From the IMG/VR virus record IMGVR_UViG_3300028025_000090: a stretch of DNA of 64,000 nucleotides. One strand, 5' to 3'. Both the position numbers and the translations under genes were made by a program. The DNA is from a virus. Positions 9,940 through 33,003 of this stretch are shown here, one piece after another. The notes beneath the pieces were generated by a model, which saw only the letters and a list, made by a program, of their open reading frames with translations, had not been told where the DNA came from and made no database searches. The first letter of the stretch is position 1; every line of letters starts with the position of its first letter.

Positions 9940-10011
9940 GCGCTTGAAGCATATCGGTCATGCAGCCGTCTCATAAACGGCAGAAAGCAGGTTCAACTCC
10001 TGTCGGGCGTA
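9940..10011 (+). tRNA. tRNA with CAU anticodon (Met or Ile2)
   Basis: D-stem GCAT/ATGC, anticodon arm GCCGT-CTCATAA-ACGGC, T-arm GCAGG-TTCAACT-CCTGT; weak acceptor with G-U pairs; no CCA; bounded by two array motifs. Confidence 0.8.
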
Positions 10012-10045
10012 CTAATTTATTAAAAAACTAGATTACAATCAGGAC

Positions 10046-26106: not shown

Positions 26107-27210
26107 TTAAGGGAATAGCTGTTCTTGGTGGAAAAAATAATAAAGCCCAACCTGTGAAATAGTCAAAATGATGAATGCTGCAATGACCCATCCCGTAGGA
26201 ATCAGGAAATCTGTGTCTTTATACATTGTCCATTCATGGGATTGGAAGTCTTTGCGAACAATCGCTTTCAATTCTTTTAGGATATCATCGTTTACGGGAT
26301 TTGTTAAGAACAGGGTTTGGATATTTTGTTTCACCAATTCACTCTTCGACCAACCAAAGACATAGCACCAATCAGCGGAAGCGTTTTTAGTTCCTCCATG
26401 ACAGATCACCAGATCATTCTTTTTACCGTTTTGCCAGTGAGCCTGAATATATTTTGCTTTTTCAATACTATCTGTCTTTACTAGAATGAGGTTGACATGT
26501 TTCTGCGGTCCGAGCGCACTGTTCATTTTGTCCCAATTCCAGATATCAATGGCAGTGTCACCAATGATTCTTGATGAACTGAATGTGGCATTGTCGGGAT
26601 AATTTGGTAGTCCCATTTTTTGAGCCTCTTCTTTGGAGATCTTTTGATAATTGTGTAGTGTTTTACTATTTTTCAGAGGGTTCATCCATGTTCTGATTTC
26701 CGTCACAGGGTAATCACAAAATTCAGGATCATCATTCACATAAGAAATATAATCGTTTCTATCACCGCTATCATAATCAGGACGATAACCCTTTTCCACG
26801 GAGATTCCGTGCTTTTTAGAAATCTGATCAAAGAACCAAGGCTCGATATCATACCTACCCAAAGTCGTTTCCACCCACCATTTGGGGTAATGTGTCTCCC
26901 GTTTTGTTTCAGGGACTGTGTATGATGTGGTGTTGCCTTTGCTGTCAGTAGAATAATGTGTTACCAATTCTATCCACTCTGCTTCCCACTTGGGAATATG
27001 AACTGCTTTTTCAACCTTTCCTGAATGAGTCTCTGTATCTCTTTGATTGGAACACTTTGACAAACCCAAGACCATCGAAATTGTCACCAGAGCAGCGGCG
27101 ATTCCCACACCGCTTTCTCTGATATCAATCGTATGGAATTTAATCCATGCGAAAACCCCCGCCGCAACGGGGATAATCATCAATAAGAATAACCAATATC
27201 CGAATGTCAT
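26107..27210 (-). CDS. Membrane protein (N- and C-terminal TM segments)
   Basis: 367 aa; hydrophobic ends; coupled to LemA-like gene. Confidence 0.75.
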   Translation of the reverse strand: MTFGYWLFLLMIIPVAAGVFAWIKFHTIDIRESGVGIAAALVTISMVLGLSKCSNQRDTETHSGKVEKAVHIPKWEAEWIELVTHYSTDSKGNTTSYTVPETKRETHYPKWWVETTLGRYDIEPWFFDQISKKHGISVEKGYRPDYDSGDRNDYISYVNDDPEFCDYPVTEIRTWMNPLKNSKTLHNYQKISKEEAQKMGLPNYPDNATFSSSRIIGDTAIDIWNWDKMNSALGPQKHVNLILVKTDSIEKAKYIQAHWQNGKKNDLVICHGGTKNASADWCYVFGWSKSELVKQNIQTLFLTNPVNDDILKELKAIVRKDFQSHEWTMYKDTDFLIPTGWVIAAFIILTISQVGLYYFFHQEQLFP

Positions 27211-27770
27211 TACTTGATCCAGTTGGAGTTATCTTCCCCTGTTTGGAAATTCTCTTTGGTTTCCGCACTTGTCACGATCACGACTTGGATTTCCTGTTTA
27301 CCAAACATCTTGAGAATGATGCCTGATGGGAATTGAGTGATCATATCGTCTCCTTGTCTTTTGATTTCCAAAAGACGGGTTTGAGAGAATTGCCAATCCT
27401 TACGACCAGCCACAATGATATTCTGTAGATTAGTCAAAGTCTTGACTTCCGTAATCGTCGGAACCGCTTCTTGAACCATACCCACAGTCACCAATTGACC
27501 TTCTCCTGCTGTGTTACCCCCTCTTGCCTTAGCGTAACCAGTAATAATATTCGTCAGAGCTTCCACTTCCTTATCGGATACAGATGCTGCTTCTCGAATC
27601 GCCTTTCGTGTATTATCCAACACGTTCTTATTATCTTCCTGTGTAGCTTTCGCCAAATTCTCCAATTTCGTGTAGCCATTGAAGCTACCGATAGCGGAGA
27701 ACAAGAAGATAAGACCAAGGAAGACAACGCTTCCACCTACGACCAATGATGTAATTAATGTTTTATTCAT
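27210..27770 (-). CDS. LemA-like membrane-anchored protein
   Basis: N-terminal TM, helical body, ITQFPSGIILKMFG C-terminal pattern. Confidence 0.5.
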   Translation of the reverse strand: MNKTLITSLVVGGSVVFLGLIFLFSAIGSFNGYTKLENLAKATQEDNKNVLDNTRKAIREAASVSDKEVEALTNIITGYAKARGGNTAGEGQLVTVGMVQEAVPTITEVKTLTNLQNIIVAGRKDWQFSQTRLLEIKRQGDDMITQFPSGIILKMFGKQEIQVVIVTSAETKENFQTGEDNSNWIK

Positions 27771-27779
27771 TTCGCAAGT

Positions 27780-27807
27780 ATCTTACCCTAGTTTTTTATT
27801 TTGTCAA
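27780..27807 (-). promoter_or_regulatory. Sigma70-type promoter containing the array motif in its spacer
   Basis: Minus strand TTGACA-aaataAAAAACTAGgg-TAAGAT (16-nt spacer) 9 nt before ATG 27770. Confidence 0.7.
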
Positions 27808-27812
27808 TAGGG

Positions 27813-27841
27813 TTGACAAATCAGAATCTTGTGGTTAAATA
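27813..27841 (+). promoter_or_regulatory. Promoter of tRNA cluster
   Basis: TTGACA (27813)-N16/17-TTAAAT/TAAATA just upstream of first tRNA. Confidence 0.65.
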
Positions 27842-27851
27842 CTTACTCAAT

Positions 27852-27923
27852 TGCGGGGTAGAGCAGTGGTAGCTCGTCTGGCTCATAACCAGAAGGTCGT
27901 CAGTTCAATCCTGACCCCCGCTA
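27852..27923 (+). tRNA. tRNA-Met(CAU), initiator-like
   Basis: Cloverleaf; loop CTCATAA; 1:72 mismatch; no CCA. Confidence 0.9.
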
Positions 27924-27929
27924 CAGAAA

Positions 27930-28000
27930 GCGTCTTTGATGTAATGGTAACATGCCTTCCTTCCAAGTAGGTTACGTGGGTTCGAGTCCCACAAGACGCT
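27930..28000 (+). tRNA. tRNA-Gly(UCC)
   Basis: Cloverleaf; loop CTTCCAA; no CCA. Confidence 0.9.
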
Positions 28001-28055
28001 CATTTAATAAAAAAACTTGAAAAAGTTGAACTAAATGCTAAATACTAATAACAAC

Positions 28056-28118
28056 ATGAAATACGAACAATATAATCAAGAGAAGGCAGCGACACCGAAT
28101 AGGTGGCGGCGTGAATGA
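28056..28118 (+). CDS. 20-aa leader peptide MKYEQYNQEKAATPNRWRRE
   Basis: Translated by hand; preceded by TTGAAA(28017)-N16-TAAATA(28039); followed by terminator. Confidence 0.6.
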   Translation: MKYEQYNQEKAATPNRWRRE

Positions 28119-28148
28119 TTATGTTTTAAATACATATTGGATTTCGCG

Positions 28149-28174
28149 CCTCATCTGAAAAGATGAGGTTTTTT
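28149..28174 (+). terminator. Intrinsic terminator/attenuator inside the tRNA cluster
   Basis: CCTCATCT-GAAA-AGATGAGG-TTTTTT. Confidence 0.85.
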
Positions 28175-28250
28175 ATTTTAGAGGTGAACGAAGCAACCTG
28201 AATGGCTAGAGAGTGGTGAAAGACTAATAGAAAATGAAATATATTTTAAT

Positions 28251-28323
28251 TCCCAAGTAGCTCAGTTGGTAGAGCGCGTGACTGTTAATCACGTTGTCGT
28301 AGGTTCGATCCCTACCTTGGGAG
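28251..28323 (+). tRNA. tRNA-Asn(GUU)
   Basis: Cloverleaf; loop CTGTTAA; no CCA. Confidence 0.93.
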
Positions 28324-28328
28324 CAGAA

Positions 28329-28404
28329 GGGTGTGTAGCTCAGTTGGTAGAGCAAGAAGCTTTTAACTTCGTGGTCATAGGTTCAAATCCTGTCACACCC
28401 ACCA
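28329..28404 (+). tRNA. tRNA-Lys(UUU)
   Basis: Cloverleaf; loop CTTTTAA; CCA encoded. Confidence 0.93.
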
Positions 28405-28405
28405 T

Positions 28406-28480
28406 GCTTCTATCGTCTAATGGTTAGGACAGGTGGTTTTCATCCACCAAATAAGGGTTCGATTCCCTTTAGAAGTGCCA
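28406..28480 (+). tRNA. tRNA-Glu(UUC)
   Basis: Cloverleaf; loop TTTTCAT; CCA encoded. Confidence 0.93.
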
Positions 28481-28482
28481 AT

Positions 28483-28553
28483 GCCTCCATAGTTCAATGG
28501 TAGAACCCCCGATTTGTAATCGGGAGATACAGATTCGAATTCTGTTGGAGGCT
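28483..28553 (+). tRNA. tRNA-Thr(UGU)
   Basis: Cloverleaf; loop TTTGTAA; no CCA. Confidence 0.9.
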
Positions 28554-28586
28554 CTTGACAAAATAATTTTTATGATAAGATTGGGC

Positions 28587-29114
28587 ATGAAGAAAACAAA
28601 TTTGATATTATTACATGCATATGAGATTGGATATAGATGTGATGAACAGGGGAACGTTAGTTCAAAAAAAGGAATCATAAATCCTTATATCAATAGTAAT
28701 GGATACTTATCTTTTTCAGTGAAAGTGAGTCCACCAATCCATCACAAATTGGCATCTAAAGCTGTGCCTGTTCACAGACTACAAGCATATCAAAAACATG
28801 GTGATGAAATTTTCGGTGAAAACATTCATGTGAGACATCTGAATGGGAATCCTCTAGACAATTCATACGATAATATTTTAATTGGTAGTGTATCAGAAAA
28901 TTCTTTGGACAGACCAAAACATTCAAGAATAAAAAACGCTATCAATGCATCCAATAAAATTAGAAGATTCACAGATTCTGAGATATTGGAAATCAAAAAA
29001 TTTCATAAAGAAAACAAATCAACGTATAAAGAAACGATGAGTAAATTTAATATTAGCAGTAAAGGATCATTACATTACATATTGAATACTGAATACGTAA
29101 CAAACAAAGGGTAG
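28587..29114 (+). mobile_element. HNH homing endonuclease (start revised from 28497)
   Basis: VHRLQAY...VRHLNGNPLDNSYDNI; own TTGACA-N15-TAAGAT-N5-ATG promoter; inserted between tRNA-Thr and tRNA-Tyr. Confidence 0.85.
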
Positions 29115-29193
29115 GTAAAGCCAGTGGCTCTGGCAGTCAGACTGTAAATCTGATCTCTTCTGAGGGGTGGATCGATACCACACCTGCCCACCA
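29109..29193 (+). tRNA. tRNA-Tyr(GUA)
   Basis: Loop CTGTAAA; long variable arm; CCA encoded. Confidence 0.92.
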
Positions 29194-29196
29194 TAT

Positions 29197-29272
29197 CGGG
29201 AGTTGATGTAACTTGGTAGCATGAGGCATTTGGATTGCTTTCGTCAGAGTTCAAATCTCTGGCTCCCGACCA
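29197..29272 (+). tRNA. tRNA-Pro(UGG)
   Basis: Loop TTTGGAT; CCA encoded. Confidence 0.88.
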
Positions 29273-29281
29273 TTTTTCAAA

Positions 29282-29355
29282 GGGTCATTAGCTCAATTGG
29301 TAGAGCGGCTGTTTTGCAAACAGCGGGTTGTGGGTTCGAGTCCCACATGTATCCA
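29282..29355 (+). tRNA. tRNA-Ala(UGC)
   Basis: Loop TTTGCAA; G3-U70 present; 1-nt bulge in acceptor stem; no CCA. Confidence 0.85.
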
Positions 29356-29364
29356 CATTTTAAT

Positions 29365-29438
29365 TGGGCGTTAGTGTAATGGTAGCACCGCAGATTTTGA
29401 TTCTGTTAGTAGAGGTTCGAGTCCTCTACGCCCTACCA
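29365..29438 (+). tRNA. tRNA-Gln(UUG)
   Basis: Loop TTTTGAT; CCA encoded. Confidence 0.9.
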
Positions 29439-29479
29439 CAATAACTCCAATTTCTCAAGTCAATAGATTAAATAATATT

Positions 29480-29854
29480 ATGATAACATTTTCAAAATTT
29501 TTCGAATTGTTTTTAGAAAATTACAATGAAGTTCGAATATATAATAGTATGGTTCGTCTCCCTATGGATAAACCTTATGGCTTTTGGATGGATAAGCACG
29601 GTAATTTCGCAGTCGTTAAAGGTGGAATGGGATCACATGAAAAAATTGGTAAATTGATTTTGGATCAACTTGATATAGATTCAGGGGGGAGTGTATATGA
29701 AACATTATTCGAAAATGGTTGGGTTCGTGTCATGTTAGACAGGAATAAAACATATTATGAAAAATCTCACATGAGATCATTAACTCCTATTCAAAAACGT
29801 AATTTATCTTTTATTAACGAATTCTACGAATTAAAAGGAGTGGAAGAAGGTTAA
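29480..29854 (+). CDS. Hypothetical late protein
   Basis: TAAATA-N5-ATG; GFWMDKHGNF. Confidence 0.8.
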   Translation: MITFSKFFELFLENYNEVRIYNSMVRLPMDKPYGFWMDKHGNFAVVKGGMGSHEKIGKLILDQLDIDSGGSVYETLFENGWVRVMLDRNKTYYEKSHMRSLTPIQKRNLSFINEFYELKGVEEG

Positions 29855-29861
29855 TATTTTT

Positions 29862-30335
29862 ATGAGAACATTCTTAGAATCCTTTTATGATATCCAAGAG
29901 CTATCTCCGAATAGTAAGCTACAGGATATCTTGAATACTCACTATCTCAAAGTCTATCGTTCATCGGCTCGTCCCAATAAGAGTGATTATACTTCAGGTT
30001 CTCATGCAGGAACTAAACAACAAGCTCTAATTCGTGCCGATTATATGATCAATGATGAAGGGAAATACGACAAGTATTATCTTTATGAATTGACGATTCG
30101 AATTGATAAAGTGTATCCCAAGTTACTATCTGATGATGGAACAGATCATGGATATGATTATGTAAAAGATTTAGGTGATTATGATATTGCTTTCTATAAA
30201 AATACAGGAGAAGGTGATATCAGAAACGAAAATCTTTCCATTATCATCATCAATCCTGATAGCGTGGTTGAATCTAAAATGGTCGAAGAGATCGATGGAG
30301 AGTATTTAACAGCAATGCAAGACGAATTATATTAA
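29862..30335 (+). CDS. Hypothetical protein (weak ADP-ribosyltransferase-like pattern)
   Basis: KVYRSS...GSHAGTKQQA...LYELTI; resemblance only. Confidence 0.3.
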   Translation: MRTFLESFYDIQELSPNSKLQDILNTHYLKVYRSSARPNKSDYTSGSHAGTKQQALIRADYMINDEGKYDKYYLYELTIRIDKVYPKLLSDDGTDHGYDYVKDLGDYDIAFYKNTGEGDIRNENLSIIIINPDSVVESKMVEEIDGEYLTAMQDELY

Positions 30336-31451
30336 TTATTTAAATTTTATTCTGGATTTAGCTTCTTTATCACCCAACTCATAACCCATTTTAGGAAGTG
30401 CTAAGTGTTCTTTACCAATTTCATAACCACCATAAGGATCGACACCATCTTTACTAACGCTTCTTAAATGTTCCGCATACTCTTTATCTTTGTTGGTCGC
30501 ATTTGTATATGTCGGCATCATAACGCTTCTACCGTCAACTAAAACAAATCTTATTCTCTTACCTTTAAAAATAGCTTTGGCTGCTGCTAATTGCACCCAA
30601 TCATCCCATAGTCTTTGAGACGCATCTGTTTTAGTAAACTCGCCAATTTCTTTAATAAAATTAATATAATCTTTCAATATCTGTTCGCCTTTTGGTGTTA
30701 AAATATCAGTTTTAACTTTCTTTATATTTCTGAAACCAGGGGATTCTACTTGTTTTCCACTTTTATTAGTTATAGATAATGGGAATCCATAAACATCTGC
30801 GTTGATATTATCAATACATCCTATTTTTCCTGCCAATAGTTGAACTGAGAATCCAGCTTTAATGGTGGCAGCACCTTGAAAATATCTATTTAAAAATCTA
30901 TACAATTCAAATTCATCATTGATGAGTCCTTCGCCATATATTTTTTTGTATAAAAATTCTCTATTTCTCCATAAAGCTCTGATATGATTAGCTGCTCCTC
31001 TATAAAACCAAGCTTTTACTGGTTCTTTTTTACCATCTAATCCAACTATAAATTCAATATCTTTTTCAGAAGCATCTGTAGCTTTCACATAAGCAGCATA
31101 AACAGGGTATAAATTTCTAAATCTCGGCCAACTTGAACCTATCGTCCCAACAACAAGTCCCAAAACATAAAACATGTTTTCTGGACTCTCACTTGCAAAT
31201 TTTTTAATACCAGGAATTATATTACAAAATGAAGAATCCGCCAACATTAAATCTGATTGATTAATTGTTATAGTGTCTTCTTCACTTTTATCAGTGTTTT
31301 TTTTATTGATTGGTATAACAACATCAACACCCGCGACTTTAGTAACCATGTGATTCGGGTTTTTTTCAGCAGCGACAGCAGGGTCAAATGCTTCTAAAAC
31401 AATTTTATATTTTTTATTTCTTTTTTCGAAGAATTGACTAAAATTTATCAT
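30336..31451 (-). CDS. Hypothetical protein with HhH glycosylase-like motif
   Basis: FQGAATIKAGFSVQLLAGKIGCID (Lys...Asp spacing as in HhH-GPD/OGG); TAAATA-N5-ATG. Confidence 0.3.
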   Translation of the reverse strand: MINFSQFFEKRNKKYKIVLEAFDPAVAAEKNPNHMVTKVAGVDVVIPINKKNTDKSEEDTITINQSDLMLADSSFCNIIPGIKKFASESPENMFYVLGLVVGTIGSSWPRFRNLYPVYAAYVKATDASEKDIEFIVGLDGKKEPVKAWFYRGAANHIRALWRNREFLYKKIYGEGLINDEFELYRFLNRYFQGAATIKAGFSVQLLAGKIGCIDNINADVYGFPLSITNKSGKQVESPGFRNIKKVKTDILTPKGEQILKDYINFIKEIGEFTKTDASQRLWDDWVQLAAAKAIFKGKRIRFVLVDGRSVMMPTYTNATNKDKEYAEHLRSVSKDGVDPYGGYEIGKEHLALPKMGYELGDKEAKSRIKFK

Positions 31452-31482: not shown

Positions 31483-33003
31483 ATGGAAAAATTTCATAAA
31501 TTATATCGTCAACTCATGCGCGAGTATGTGGAAGACTTCGATCAGAAATGGGATAAAGCTGTTTCCGAATCGGAGGAGCTTCAGGTAGCTCTTGATTTGA
31601 TGAAAAATATCAAAGCAAAATTAAAAGGTGAAATTTATATCGTCGGTGGTGTTCCTCGTGATTTGCTCATGGGTAACGCAATTGATGATGTGGATTTGGC
31701 TACCAATATTCCTGTAGAACAATTGGAGAAACATTTTGAATTGAGAAATATTTCTAAGAACGATTCTCAACCAGTCTATGCTATCCTATGGAAAGGATAT
31801 GTTTATGATTTGGCAAAATTTAGAACTGATTCTGGTGATATTGGTAGGCAAGCGAATGTCTCAACTGAGACTGATTCCTTTCAAGCTGATACAGAACGCA
31901 GAGATTTAACAATCAATTCTTTCGGGTTGGATGAGAATGGTAAGATCGTAGATTATCAAGGTGGTCTGGATGATTTGAAAAACAAAATCGTTCGTGCTGT
32001 AGGTGATGCCAAGAAGAGATTCATGGAAGATGCTACAAGGATTCTTCGCGTTTTCCGATTCGCTGCCAAGATGGATTTTGAAATTGAAGACGATACTAAA
32101 AAAGCAGCAATCGAATTGAAATATTTGCTTCAAGATCCGAAAGCTATTTCCAAAGAAAGTATCTCGAAAGAATTTTATAAGTCTGCCAAGACTGGTAGAA
32201 CTCTTGCCAACTTCTTGAAAAAATTACAAGACACCAAAATTCTCCATGACATTCTTCCTGAATTTACAGAGATGGAAGGTTTCGATCACGATCCTCAACA
32301 TCACCCTGAAGGAGATTCTCAAGTATTGGGACACATCTATGAGTGTCTGAATGCTTCTCCCTACAAAGATCCTATTATTAATCTTGCTGTATTATTCCAT
32401 GACTTTGGGAAAGCTACGACTAGAGGGAAAAAAGATAATGGATTTAGTAGCTATCATGGTCACGAAGCTGCTGGTGTTCCCATTGTCGAAGGGATATTTG
32501 AGAGACTAAGATTCAATGAATTGTCTCAACAAGATAAAAAGAATATCTTAGCGGCAGTGGATAAACACATGCTCGTTCATAATCTAGACAAACTCAATAT
32601 TAAAACACTGACTAGACTGATCCAAAATCCTGCATGGGAAACCATCAAAGCAGTTGGTTATTGCGATGAAGCATCGAGAGGCTCTGGTCTTTTCAATGAA
32701 AAAGAATTTTGGGATAAAGTTAAAAGAGCAGAAGAAAAAGTATCCAACATCGGTGGATCGGAAGATGAAACAAGAAAACGTCTCAAGCAATATTTCAGTG
32801 GAAATAAATTGATGGAATGGTTTCCAGTTCTCATCAAAGACAAATCCAAGTTCAAAGATATTACAGCAGCACTGCAAGAATATACTCTTGAAGAGTTGAA
32901 TGCTGGTAGGGAACCAGATGATTCGGAAATGAAGACAATCGTTGCTGGTATTCTAAAGAAGAATCAATTTAATGAATGGTATAATTATTACCAGAAAAAT
33001 TAA
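31483..33003 (+). CDS. cca: tRNA nucleotidyltransferase (CCA-adding) with HD domain
   Basis: IVGGVPRD...DVDLAT, RRDLTINS, EDATRILRVFRFA, HHPEGD, LFHDFGK. Confidence 0.92.
   Translation: MEKFHKLYRQLMREYVEDFDQKWDKAVSESEELQVALDLMKNIKAKLKGEIYIVGGVPRDLLMGNAIDDVDLATNIPVEQLEKHFELRNISKNDSQPVYAILWKGYVYDLAKFRTDSGDIGRQANVSTETDSFQADTERRDLTINSFGLDENGKIVDYQGGLDDLKNKIVRAVGDAKKRFMEDATRILRVFRFAAKMDFEIEDDTKKAAIELKYLLQDPKAISKESISKEFYKSAKTGRTLANFLKKLQDTKILHDILPEFTEMEGFDHDPQHHPEGDSQVLGHIYECLNASPYKDPIINLAVLFHDFGKATTRGKKDNGFSSYHGHEAAGVPIVEGIFERLRFNELSQQDKKNILAAVDKHMLVHNLDKLNIKTLTRLIQNPAWETIKAVGYCDEASRGSGLFNEKEFWDKVKRAEEKVSNIGGSEDETRKRLKQYFSGNKLMEWFPVLIKDKSKFKDITAALQEYTLEELNAGREPDDSEMKTIVAGILKKNQFNEWYNYYQKN

What the first reader, a model, noticed from the sequence alone, without database searches (positions are those of the whole stretch)
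28017..29438. Candidate multi-tRNA-sensing attenuator controlling the phage tRNA operon
Seen: a 20-codon ORF (28056-28118, MKYEQYNQEKAATPNRWRRE) sits inside the tRNA cluster ahead of a strong terminator (28149-28174). Residues 2-15 use only K,Y,E,Q,N,A,T,P, and all eight occur. The eight tRNAs downstream of the terminator are exactly Asn, Lys, Glu, Thr, Tyr, Pro, Ala and Gln. Gly, whose tRNA is upstream, is absent from the peptide. GGCGTGAA (28108-28115, last codons) can pair with TTCGCGCC (28143-28150), which overlaps the base of the terminator stem; an inner TATGT/ACATA helix lies between them. Established: trp/his/ilv attenuators use this geometry, where a stall early in the leader frees the antiterminator and a ribosome at the stop codon blocks it. 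Inference: the phage may sense shortage or cleavage of any of eight host tRNAs (e.g. by anticodon-nuclease defences) and switch on its own replacements. A crude equal-frequency estimate for 14 residues all from 8 given amino acids is 0.4^14, about 3e-6, which ignores composition bias. I know of no described attenuator whose output is the tRNAs it senses.
Basis: partly seen in the sequence, partly recalled or inferred. Interest (0 to 1): 0.92.

Follow-up and report, generated by a model that had tools for sequence, protein, structure and literature searches.

The report
Leader-peptide attenuator gating phage tRNA genes
A T4-like phage places a tiny translated "test" gene and a switchable transcription stop in front of eight of its tRNA genes, and the test gene is written in the amino acids those tRNAs carry, so the phage probably makes these tRNAs only when ribosomes decode those codons slowly.

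Summary

**What is in the window**
- The 20-codon ORF (28056-28118) starts 11 nt after a sigma70-like -10 element.
- A strong terminator follows at 28148-28179.
- Codons 2-15 use exactly the eight amino acids of the tRNAs downstream. This is the longest such run after any of the 2,642 ATGs in the window; the next longest is 9.

**New structural evidence**
- Codons 15-20 (28100-28115) can pair with 28143-28157 over 15 bp. This covers the whole 5' arm of the terminator. Only 0.4% of shuffles pair as well.
- A region 1:2 hairpin shows a G-C to U-A compensatory change, and the terminator stem shows a U-A to C-G change.

**Comparison with relatives**
- In nine related leader variants from metagenomic phages the ORF keeps its frame and stop.
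- An Ile codon (ATT) appears only in phages that also carry tRNA-Ile(GAU).
- A Ser codon (TCA) appears only in the phage that carries tRNA-Ser(UGA).
- Many tRNA genes have been replaced among relatives (60-70% identity), while the leader stays at least 81% identical.

**Exceptions**
- Two recent tRNA losses or mutations left the leader unchanged.
- Some tRNAs have no codon in the leader.
- One Cys codon lies on a truncated contig, so its tRNA set cannot be read.

**Status**
- Nothing is tested experimentally.
- This scan has reported the same design in other phage genomes.
- I found no published description.

The parts
27813..27841 (+). Promoter of the upstream tRNA pair: TTGACA, 17-nt spacer, TAAATA. 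It has the same -10 type as the leader promoter.
   Evidence: Read from the sequence. The pattern is conserved in relatives and was used to find L026.
27852..28001 (+). tRNA-Met(CAT), with an unpaired 1:72 position as in initiator tRNAs, and tRNA-Gly(TCC). Both lie upstream of the switch, outside its control.
28017..28044 (+). Leader promoter: TTGAAA (28017-28022), 16-nt spacer ending in TG, then TAAATA (28039-28044).
   Evidence: One search lists it in a slightly different register. In L002 homology starts exactly at the -35 element. The spacer varies while both hexamers are conserved.
28056..28118 (+). Leader ORF of 20 codons. Codons 2-15 (28059-28100) are the sensor. Codons 16-20 encode region 2 of the RNA switch.
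   Evidence: ATG, frame and TGA are kept in 9 variants, including one in-frame codon insertion. The ATG lies 10-11 nt after the -10 element, so the 5' UTR is about 4 nt. That fits a phage in which 71 of 77 genes lack a Shine-Dalgarno motif.
28069..28125 (+). Closed (anti-antiterminator) domain. It has an outer A/U stem, 28069-28078 with 28116-28125. Its inner region 1:2 helix pairs 28090-28096 with 28102-28108.
   Evidence: MFE fold, z = -4.0. Pair 28091-28107 changes from G-C to U-A in L026 and L028.
28100..28157 (+). Antiterminator (regions 2:3): 28100-28106 and 28108-28115 pair with 28143-28157. It has 15 bp and one bulged base (28107).
   Evidence: Duplex energy is -20 kcal/mol. Shuffles average -11.5 (sd 2.4), 0.4% are as good, and none of 653 genomic 80-mers reaches it. 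All internal substitutions in relatives keep pairing, and the bulged base varies.
28148..28179 (+). Intrinsic terminator (regions 3:4): 9-bp stem, GAAA loop, T-tract.
   Evidence: Pair 28151-28166 goes from U-A through U-G to C-G across relatives.
28180..28250 (+). Conserved spacer between the terminator and the first tRNA. Its invariant core lies at 28213-28231. The function is unknown; it may be a weak phage-type promoter or a processing site.
   Evidence: The core is invariant in all variants. It scores 3.2 bits on the PWM of the phage's dispersed promoter motif, against 17-28 bits for true sites. No sigma70-type promoter is conserved here.
28251..28554 (+). tRNA-Asn(GTT), Lys(TTT), Glu(TTC), Thr(TGT).
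28587..29114 (+). HNH endonuclease gene inserted in the tRNA block.
   Evidence: Pfam HNH_3, E = 4e-8. It is absent at this site in L001.
29109..29438 (+). tRNA-Tyr(GTA, low-scoring), Pro(TGG), Ala(TGC), Gln(TTG).

Best explanation
This is a ribosome-mediated (leader-peptide) transcription attenuator that controls read-through into a phage tRNA operon.

**Shown by sequence and computation**
- A promoter is followed within about 4 nt of the likely transcript start by a 20-codon ORF.
- The RNA can adopt two mutually exclusive folds.
  - In the closed fold, region 1 (28090-28096) pairs with region 2 and an outer A/U stem forms. Region 3 is then free to form the terminator with region 4.
  - In the open fold, region 2 (28100-28115) pairs with region 3 (28143-28157) and takes away the whole 5' arm of the terminator.
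- Sensor codons 2-15 encode only amino acids whose tRNA genes lie behind the terminator. This relation is kept in relatives whose tRNA sets differ.

**Inferred mechanism**
- If the ribosome reads the leader quickly, it reaches the stop codon and covers region 2. If no ribosome loads, regions 1:2 form. In both cases the terminator forms and the tRNA genes are not transcribed from the upstream promoters.
- If the ribosome stalls on a sensor codon because the cognate charged tRNA is scarce, it covers region 1 and the outer stem but not region 2. The antiterminator then forms before region 4 is made, and RNA polymerase runs into the tRNA genes.
- The new phage tRNAs relieve the stall, which gives negative feedback on tRNA supply.

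**Open points**
- Whether the shortage normally comes from a codon-usage mismatch, host shut-off or tRNA-cleaving defences is open.
- Whether all sensor codons act equally is also open. The folds favour codons 9-15.
For: 1. **Architecture.** Promoter, ORF, terminator and then eight tRNAs lie in that order. No conserved sigma70-type promoter lies between the terminator and the first tRNA.

2. **Start codon.** The ATG is placed like the starts of real genes in a phage with near-leaderless, Shine-Dalgarno-free genes. ATG, frame, length and stop are kept in nine variants, including an in-frame 3-nt insertion. The peptide itself changes freely: 6 of 19 residues differ in L025. That does not fit a functional small protein.

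3. **Composition.** The run of 14 in-set residues is the longest after any of 2,642 ATGs. P is 1.4e-5 from proteome frequencies and 3.6e-4 from local base composition.

4. **Co-variation with the tRNA set.**
   - L025, L037 and L038 carry tRNA-Ile(GAU) and have ATT at codon 15.
   - L026 carries tRNA-Ser(UGA) and tRNA-Ile(GAU) and has TCA and ATT. Its 15 sensor residues use exactly the 10 amino acids of the 10 tRNAs before the next protein gene.
   - Under random drift from the window's sensor, the chance of staying within the phage's own set is 0.033 for L025 and 0.025 for L026.
   - The chance that the two new residue types are exactly Ile and Ser is 0.015-0.033.

5. **Antiterminator.** The 15-bp complementarity is significant: 0.4% of shuffles and 0 of 653 genomic 80-mers reach it.

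6. **Covariation in the RNA**.
   - The terminator pair 28151-28166 changes from U-A to C-G.
   - The region 1:2 pair 28091-28107 changes from G-C to U-A.
   - The four internal changes in the antiterminator all keep pairing.

7. **The switch is conserved.** In constrained ensembles of five variants, the terminator probability is 0.88-0.98 with no ribosome or with the ribosome at the stop. It falls to 0.02-0.3 for stalls at about codons 9-15.

8. **Conservation.** The module is 81-99% identical across relatives (94-99% in the window's closest relatives), while many flanking tRNA genes are only 59-70% identical.
Against: - There are no expression data.
- At equilibrium the open and closed states are nearly isoenergetic once region 4 exists (-21.9 against about -21.5 kcal/mol). 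The model therefore needs kinetic trapping.
- Stalls at codons 2-8 lower the terminator probability only to 0.4-0.9. The Ile codon sits at the 3' edge of the effective window.
- Tracking is one-directional and imperfect.
  - L001 lost tRNA-Ala to an HNH insertion but keeps two Ala codons.
  - L023 carries a Thr-type tRNA with anticodon TGA and an unchanged leader.
  - tRNA-Glu has no codon in the leaders of L025 and L038.
  - tRNA-Cys has none in L037 and L038.
  - Cys and Val tRNAs follow MazG in the L026 phage without leader codons.
  - L028-type leaders have a Cys codon, but their contigs end before the tRNA set is complete.
- The invariant block after the terminator could be an unrecognised promoter. 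That would make part of the tRNA expression independent of the switch.
- All homologues come from one phage lineage, so the Ile and Ser matches are one evolutionary event each.
- A-rich sequence favours both these codons and this tRNA set.
Confidence: 0.7

Rival explanations
1. The module is an independent small gene, for a peptide or a small RNA, with its own promoter and terminator. The tRNA block behind it is transcribed from an unrecognised promoter in the conserved spacer. The ORF uses only codons served by phage tRNAs because it must be translated when host tRNAs are depleted, or for no functional reason.
For: - Homology starts at the -35 element in L002 and ends right after the T-tract in L012. 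These are module-like borders.
- The core of the downstream spacer is invariant and weakly resembles the phage's dispersed promoter motif.
- T4 tRNA clusters are known to hold small stable RNAs (own knowledge).
- The fold has the two-hairpin look of a small RNA.
Against: - The peptide sequence is not conserved, but the frame and the in-set rule are.
- A small RNA would not need an ORF or codon tracking.
- No other ORF in the window shows a comparable in-set run, so general adaptation to phage tRNAs does not explain it.
- The 15-bp complementarity to the terminator arm has no role in this reading.
- The spacer scores 3.2 bits on the promoter PWM, against 17-28 bits for true sites.
Confidence: 0.12
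2. It is an attenuator, but it reports general translation capacity, such as ribosome availability, coupling to RNA polymerase or global starvation. It does not report the supply of the particular tRNAs. The codon match would then be a by-product of A-rich, unstructured coding sequence together with the AT-rich codon preference that also decides which tRNAs the phage carries.
For: - Each amino acid has only one to three scattered codons, not runs.
- Early codons have little effect in the fold model.
- Local A-rich composition raises the per-codon chance of an in-set residue to 0.57.
Against: - The Ile and Ser codons appear only where the matching tRNA genes are present.
- TCA and ATT are the codons read by anticodons UGA and GAU.
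- The GC-rich region 1 codons (Ala, Ala, Thr, Pro) are also in the set, and they stay in the set when rewritten to Ser, Thr, Ala, Pro in L026.
Confidence: 0.12
3. It is chance. A fortuitous short ORF lies in the spacer of a tRNA cluster, and the terminator simply ends the Met-Gly transcription unit.
For: - Short ORFs are common in A-rich DNA.
Against: - Several independent lines argue against chance: the composition P of 1e-5 to 4e-4, the conserved frame, the tracking of two tRNA gains, and the significant and conserved alternative pairing.
Confidence: 0.03

Closest known systems
Leader-peptide attenuators of amino-acid biosynthesis operons (trpL, hisL, leuL, pheL, and the multivalent thrL and ilvL of enterobacteria)
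   Same: - A promoter-proximal short ORF carries the regulatory codons.
- Alternative 1:2, 2:3 and 3:4 hairpins end in an intrinsic terminator.
- The stop codon is placed so that a terminating ribosome covers region 2.
- The signal is ribosome stalling for lack of charged tRNA.
   Different: - The output is tRNA genes, not enzymes.
- Eight to ten different amino acids are represented by one to three scattered codons each, not by runs of one to three amino acids.
- The element is phage-encoded.
- The start is near-leaderless and has no Shine-Dalgarno motif.
- The codon list changes along with the gene content of the operon.
pheST (pheM) leader attenuator of E. coli phenylalanyl-tRNA synthetase (own knowledge)
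   Same: A leader-peptide attenuator whose output is a component of the translation apparatus matched to the sensed tRNA.
   Different: It senses one amino acid and controls a synthetase, not tRNA genes.
T-box riboswitches
   Same: tRNA status decides between a terminator and an antiterminator upstream of translation-related genes.
   Different: T-boxes bind uncharged tRNA directly and have no ORF. No T-box or any other Rfam family matches here.
Small stable RNAs inside the T4 tRNA cluster (species 1 and 2; own knowledge)
   Same: A short non-tRNA transcript is encoded within the tRNA gene cluster of a T4-like phage.
   Different: Those RNAs have no conserved ORF, no codon match and no known switch. 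Here the ORF and the switch are the conserved features.
Leader-peptide attenuators in front of phage tRNA clusters, reported earlier by this scan on other genomes (unpublished AI notes)
   Same: The design is the same: a short ORF written in the amino acids of the tRNAs behind it, followed by a terminator/antiterminator switch.
   Different: - Most of those notes concern other phages, many of them giant phages or flavobacterial-type phages with several clusters.
- This is a single unit in a distant T4-like phage, with a different leader sequence family.
- I did not test those reports.

Membership tests
Ribosome-mediated leader-peptide transcription attenuator | A short ORF lies directly downstream of a promoter and upstream of the regulated genes. 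| tested here: met
   The promoter is at 28017-28044 and the ORF at 28056-28118. Both are conserved in nine variants.
Ribosome-mediated leader-peptide transcription attenuator | An intrinsic terminator lies between the ORF and the regulated genes. | tested here: met
   The terminator has a 9-bp stem and a T-tract at 28148-28179. One pair shows a compensatory change.
Ribosome-mediated leader-peptide transcription attenuator | An antiterminator is mutually exclusive with the terminator. | tested here: met
   The 15-bp pairing 28100-28115 with 28143-28157 covers the whole 5' arm. Only 0.4% of shuffles pair as well. Substitutions in relatives keep pairing. This is in silico evidence only.
Ribosome-mediated leader-peptide transcription attenuator | An anti-antiterminator (regions 1:2) is overlapped by the ORF, and the stop codon is placed so that a terminating ribosome masks region 2. 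| tested here: met
   The helix 28090-28096 with 28102-28108 shows a G-C to U-A change. A ribosome at the stop gives a terminator probability of 0.88-0.98.
Ribosome-mediated leader-peptide transcription attenuator | The regulatory codons are cognate to what the operon supplies. | tested here: met
   The sensor residues are a subset of the downstream tRNA identities in all eight complete, intact clusters. Ile and Ser codons co-occur with the matching tRNA genes.
Ribosome-mediated leader-peptide transcription attenuator | The classical members carry tandem runs of the regulatory codon. | tested here: not met
   Each amino acid has one to three scattered codons. This is a difference in design, not a requirement of the mechanism; trpL has only two Trp codons.
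Ribosome-mediated leader-peptide transcription attenuator | Read-through rises when the cognate charged tRNA is limiting. | not testable with these tools
T-box riboswitch | A specifier loop and the conserved T-box sequence are recognisable with the Rfam model. | tested here: not met
   No Rfam match at E <= 1 in 28002-28250.
Independent small RNA gene | Conservation is explained by RNA structure or a seed region alone, with no constraint on a reading frame. | tested here: not met
   The frame, ATG, stop and the in-set rule are kept through 10 or more substitutions and one in-frame insertion.

The most novel reading that the evidence does not exclude
The leader may be an evolvable 'checklist' sensor of decoding capacity. 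Each time the phage adds a tRNA gene to the operon, a cognate codon is recruited into the leader. The physiological trigger would be loss of host tRNAs during infection, including cleavage by anticodon nucleases or other tRNA-targeting defences. The operon would then be an inducible counter-defence. A CCA-adding/HD repair enzyme is encoded 2 kb away.
Probability: 0.2. Interest if true: 0.95.

Novelty: new variant of a known kind. Interest (0 to 1): 0.85.

Why it matters
- How phages control their tRNA genes is essentially unknown. The debate on why phages carry tRNAs (codon compensation or escape from tRNA-targeting defences; PMC10264068, PMC11464382) treats these genes as constitutively expressed.
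- A leader-peptide attenuator whose output is the tRNAs it senses would be a direct supply-and-demand feedback on decoding capacity. It extends a textbook mechanism to a new class of genes and to as many as ten amino acids at once.
- It would also give an experimental handle. The leader lists which tRNAs the phage treats as limiting. The switch could serve as a compact reporter of the availability of specific tRNAs.
- The idea can be tested cheaply in a reconstituted transcription-translation system.

Tried and rejected
- **Rfam.** A search of 27000-30500 at E <= 1 found only tRNAs and noise.
- **Cultured phages.** blastn against INPHARED found only tRNA matches. No cultured relative carries the leader.
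- **Chance pattern hits.** A metagenome pattern hit (L022) and a genome pattern hit (L027, an archaeal MAG) both lie inside unrelated genes.
- **Distant relatives.** Distant relatives of two flanking proteins (L003, L015, L016) have no tRNA cluster at the corresponding site.
- **Trans targets.** I looked for targets complementary to the leader's 5' part. There is nothing beyond 11-12-nt chance matches.
- **MFE register of the inner hairpin (register b).** It is rejected because relatives break it. Register a is kept.
It is not conserved.
- **A sigma70 promoter between the terminator and the first tRNA.** Each locus gives only a site of its own, not conserved; in L011 and L002 the -10 lies inside the tRNA.
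- **The phage's dispersed promoter motif in the spacer.** The score is weak, 3.2 bits.
- **Analogous leaders in larger tRNA arrays.** A crude scan of more distant relatives (L035, L036, L040) found none convincing.
- **The second tRNA cluster of the L026 phage.** It has individual promoters and no leader.
- **Missing end of the L028-type cluster.** I tried to find it through MazG relatives. The contig from the same sample (L040) belongs to another phage.
Full report
**1. The observation**

- Window 28056-28118 is a 20-codon ORF.
- Residues 2-15 use only Lys, Tyr, Glu, Gln, Asn, Ala, Thr and Pro, and all eight occur.
- A terminator follows, with a 9-bp stem at 28148-28156/28161-28169, a GAAA loop and a T-tract to 28179.
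- Behind it lie tRNA-Asn, Lys, Glu and Thr, then an HNH endonuclease gene (Pfam HNH_3), then Tyr, Pro, Ala and Gln.
- tRNA-Tyr (29109-29193) is called only at a relaxed ARAGORN threshold and not by Rfam.
- Upstream lie tRNA-Met and tRNA-Gly with their own promoter.

**2. Is the match more than chance?**

| Null model | P that 14 residues all fall in the set |
|---|---|
| Amino-acid frequencies of 77 long ORFs in the window | 1.4e-5 (1.9e-6 if all eight must occur) |
| Bases drawn at the local composition (50% A) | 3.6e-4 |

- Empirically, among all 2,642 ATGs on both strands the run of 14 is the longest. The next is 9.
- A-richness favours both these codons and the kinds of tRNA an AT-rich phage carries. 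It is therefore a partial common cause, but it does not explain the run.

**3. Context**

- The portal protein is 30% identical to gp20 of KVP40-type phages, so this is a distant T4-like phage.
- Only 6 of 77 long ORFs have a Shine-Dalgarno-like motif.
- Genes are instead preceded at fixed distance by promoter-like motifs. One motif occurs 79 times, with the ATG 11 nt (45 times) or 14 nt (21 times) behind it.
- Near-leaderless, Shine-Dalgarno-free starts are thus the rule here.
- The leader has TTGAAA, a 16-nt spacer ending in TG, TAAATA, then 11 nt and the ATG. Its -10 element is of the same type as that of the tRNA-Met promoter.
- An ATG about 4 nt from the transcript start is therefore a credible start in this system.

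**4. Relatives**

- Pattern and protein searches recovered the module in metagenomic phage contigs.
- There are nine distinct leader variants.
- ATG, frame and TGA are kept in all of them. The only indel inside the ORF is one whole codon.
- Sensor peptides and the tRNA genes behind the terminator, up to the next protein gene other than inserted HNH genes:

| Locus | Sensor peptide | tRNA set behind the terminator |
|---|---|---|
| window, L011, L024 | KYEQYNQEKAATPN | the eight |
| L002 | KYEQYNQNKPATPN | the same eight |
| L025 | KYQQYNQNKPATPI | the eight plus Ile(GAU) |
| L037 | KYEQYNQNKPATPI | the eight plus Ile and Cys |
| L038 | same peptide as L025 | the eight plus Ile and Cys |
| L026 | KYEQQYNQNKSTAPI | the eight plus Ser(UGA) and Ile(GAU) |

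- In L026 the 15 sensor residues use exactly the ten amino acids of those ten tRNAs.
- The tRNA-Ser of L026 is a class II tRNA with a long variable arm, called at the default ARAGORN threshold.
- ATT is present only where tRNA-Ile is present. TCA is present only where tRNA-Ser is present.
- Random substitutions applied to the window's sensor, in the observed numbers, stay inside the phage's own set with probability 0.033 (L025) and 0.025 (L026). The chance that two new residue types are exactly Ile and Ser is 0.015-0.033.
- These phages share ancestry, so Ile and Ser count as one event each.
- Peptide identity is poorly kept. There are six replacements and one synonymous change between the window and L025, so a functional small protein is unlikely.
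- Many tRNA genes have been replaced by unrelated versions of the same identity. Between the window and L011, Lys, Glu, Thr, Tyr, Gln and Asn are 60-70% identical. The leader module is 94-99% identical in the window's closest relatives and 81-82% in the L025 and L026 groups.

**5. Exceptions**

- L001 lost tRNA-Ala to an HNH insertion and keeps two Ala codons.
- L023 has a Thr-type tRNA with anticodon TGA and a 4-nt insertion, with an unchanged leader.
- Some tRNAs have no codon in the leader:
  - Glu in L025 and L038.
  - Cys in L037 and L038.
  - Cys and Val, which lie behind MazG in the L026 phage.
- L028, L029 and L030 carry a Cys codon at position 3. Their contigs end before the cluster is complete. 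Their closest relatives L026 and L039 have tRNA-Cys behind MazG.
- In L012 homology stops right after the T-tract, 102 nt before the contig end. That tail matches nothing else.
- The rule that holds is this: every sensor codon has a tRNA behind the switch. The converse holds only mostly.

**6. RNA switch**

- The free RNA folds with z = -4.0 into a long hairpin plus the terminator.
- A duplex search showed that 28100-28106 and 28108-28115 pair with 28143-28157.
  - The pairing is 15 bp with one bulge at -20 kcal/mol, and it covers the entire 5' arm of the terminator.
  - Shuffles average -11.5 (sd 2.4). Only 0.4% reach -20, and none of 653 genomic 80-mers does.
- With a ribosome on codons 9-11 and RNA transcribed to 28158, the full antiterminator is the minimum-energy fold.
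- Across five variants:

| Ribosome position | Probability of a complete terminator |
|---|---|
| No ribosome, or at the stop codon | 0.88-0.98 |
| Stalled at codons 2-8 | 0.4-0.9 |
| Stalled at about codons 9-15 (depends on the assumed footprint) | 0.02-0.3 |

- With the shorter footprint, the edge of the responsive zone in the window falls between codon 15 and codon 16. That is where the in-set residues end.
- Comparative support:
  - Terminator pair 28151-28166 goes from U-A through U-G to C-G.
  - Region 1:2 pair 28091-28107 goes from G-C to U-A in L026 and L028. This also rejects the register preferred by the energy model.
  - The four internal substitutions in the antiterminator all keep pairing. 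The bulged base varies, and only terminal pairs are lost.
- Once region 4 exists, the open and closed states are nearly isoenergetic. The switch must therefore work kinetically, as in classical attenuators.

**7. What remains unclear**

- The 70 nt between the terminator and the first tRNA contain an invariant 19-nt core (28213-28231).
  - No sigma70-type promoter is conserved there.
  - The core scores 3.2 bits on the PWM of the phage's dispersed promoter motif, against 17-28 bits for true sites.
  - It may be a weak promoter, a processing signal or part of the read-through RNA.
- No transcript data could be obtained.

**8. Comparison with what is known**

- The element meets the structural criteria of leader-peptide attenuators. 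It differs in its output (tRNA genes), its multi-amino-acid sensor without codon runs, and its near-leaderless start.
- It is not a T-box.
- Searches of the paper library for attenuation or leader peptides in front of phage or other tRNA genes found nothing. The library is incomplete.
- This scan has already reported the same design on other phage genomes, and two first-reader notes describe homologous leaders on other DNA. These are unchecked AI notes and are not counted as evidence here.

**9. Verdict**

- A ribosome-mediated attenuator that gates a phage tRNA operon and whose leader lists the operon's tRNAs is the best-supported reading (confidence about 0.7).
- The defence-sensing version is possible but untested.

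Noticed in passing
window 1-25100, + strand: A promoter-like motif (AAAAACTA, then a TAnnnT-type hexamer) occurs 79 times. Nearly every copy precedes a small ORF, with the ATG 11 or 14 nt behind it. Only 6 of 77 long ORFs in the window have a Shine-Dalgarno-like motif. Most other genes have TAAATAAT-like sequence directly before the ATG.
   Followed up: partly
window 27852-27924: tRNA-Met(CAT) upstream of the switch has an unpaired 1:72 position (U.U), a hallmark of bacterial initiator tRNAs. The second tRNA-Met at 9940-10012 has a paired 1:72. An initiator could not be sensed by elongation stalling, which may be why it sits outside the switch.
   Followed up: partly
window 28251-29438 compared with L011, L002, L025 and L026: Many tRNA genes of the same identity are only 59-70% identical between close relatives, and their order differs. 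The genes are evidently exchanged while the identity set is kept.
   Followed up: partly
window 28587-29114; L011 969-1650; L001 3837-4424: Different HNH endonuclease genes are inserted at different places in the tRNA cluster in different relatives. In L001 one has replaced tRNA-Ala.
   Followed up: partly
L023 5189-5264: The homologue of the window's tRNA-Thr carries anticodon TGA instead of TGT, plus a 4-nt duplication in the variable region. It could be a recoding tRNA, a dead gene or an assembly error.
   Followed up: no
window 31483-33003; L031 6219-8264 and beyond; L038 5177-8050: A CCA-adding enzyme with an HD domain is encoded 2 kb from the tRNA cluster. In relatives it is a 957-968-residue protein that also has a NUDIX domain.
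   Followed up: no
L026 552-765 (- strand); L028 4859-5014: Unexplained non-coding spacers of 215 and 157 nt lie inside the tRNA blocks. One is between Ala and Ser, the other between Tyr and Pro. They have no tRNA or Rfam match above threshold.
   Followed up: no
L012 1-102: In one relative the sequence after the leader terminator is unrelated to the conserved spacer and tRNAs, and the contig ends 102 nt later. It is either a variant with another gene behind the switch or an assembly artefact.
   Followed up: partly
L041 (G006:140900-142600, - strand): The 197.7-kb relative has a second tRNA cluster (Leu, Met, Ile(TAT), Leu). Individual dispersed-motif promoters stand before single tRNAs, and there is no leader. 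A structured 150-nt stretch lies behind a TTGACT...TAAATACT promoter.
   Followed up: no
L025 3994-3999; L026 about 1680 (- strand): A full dispersed-motif promoter just upstream of the leader promoter is followed by a one-codon (ATG TAA) or two-codon ORF.
   Followed up: no
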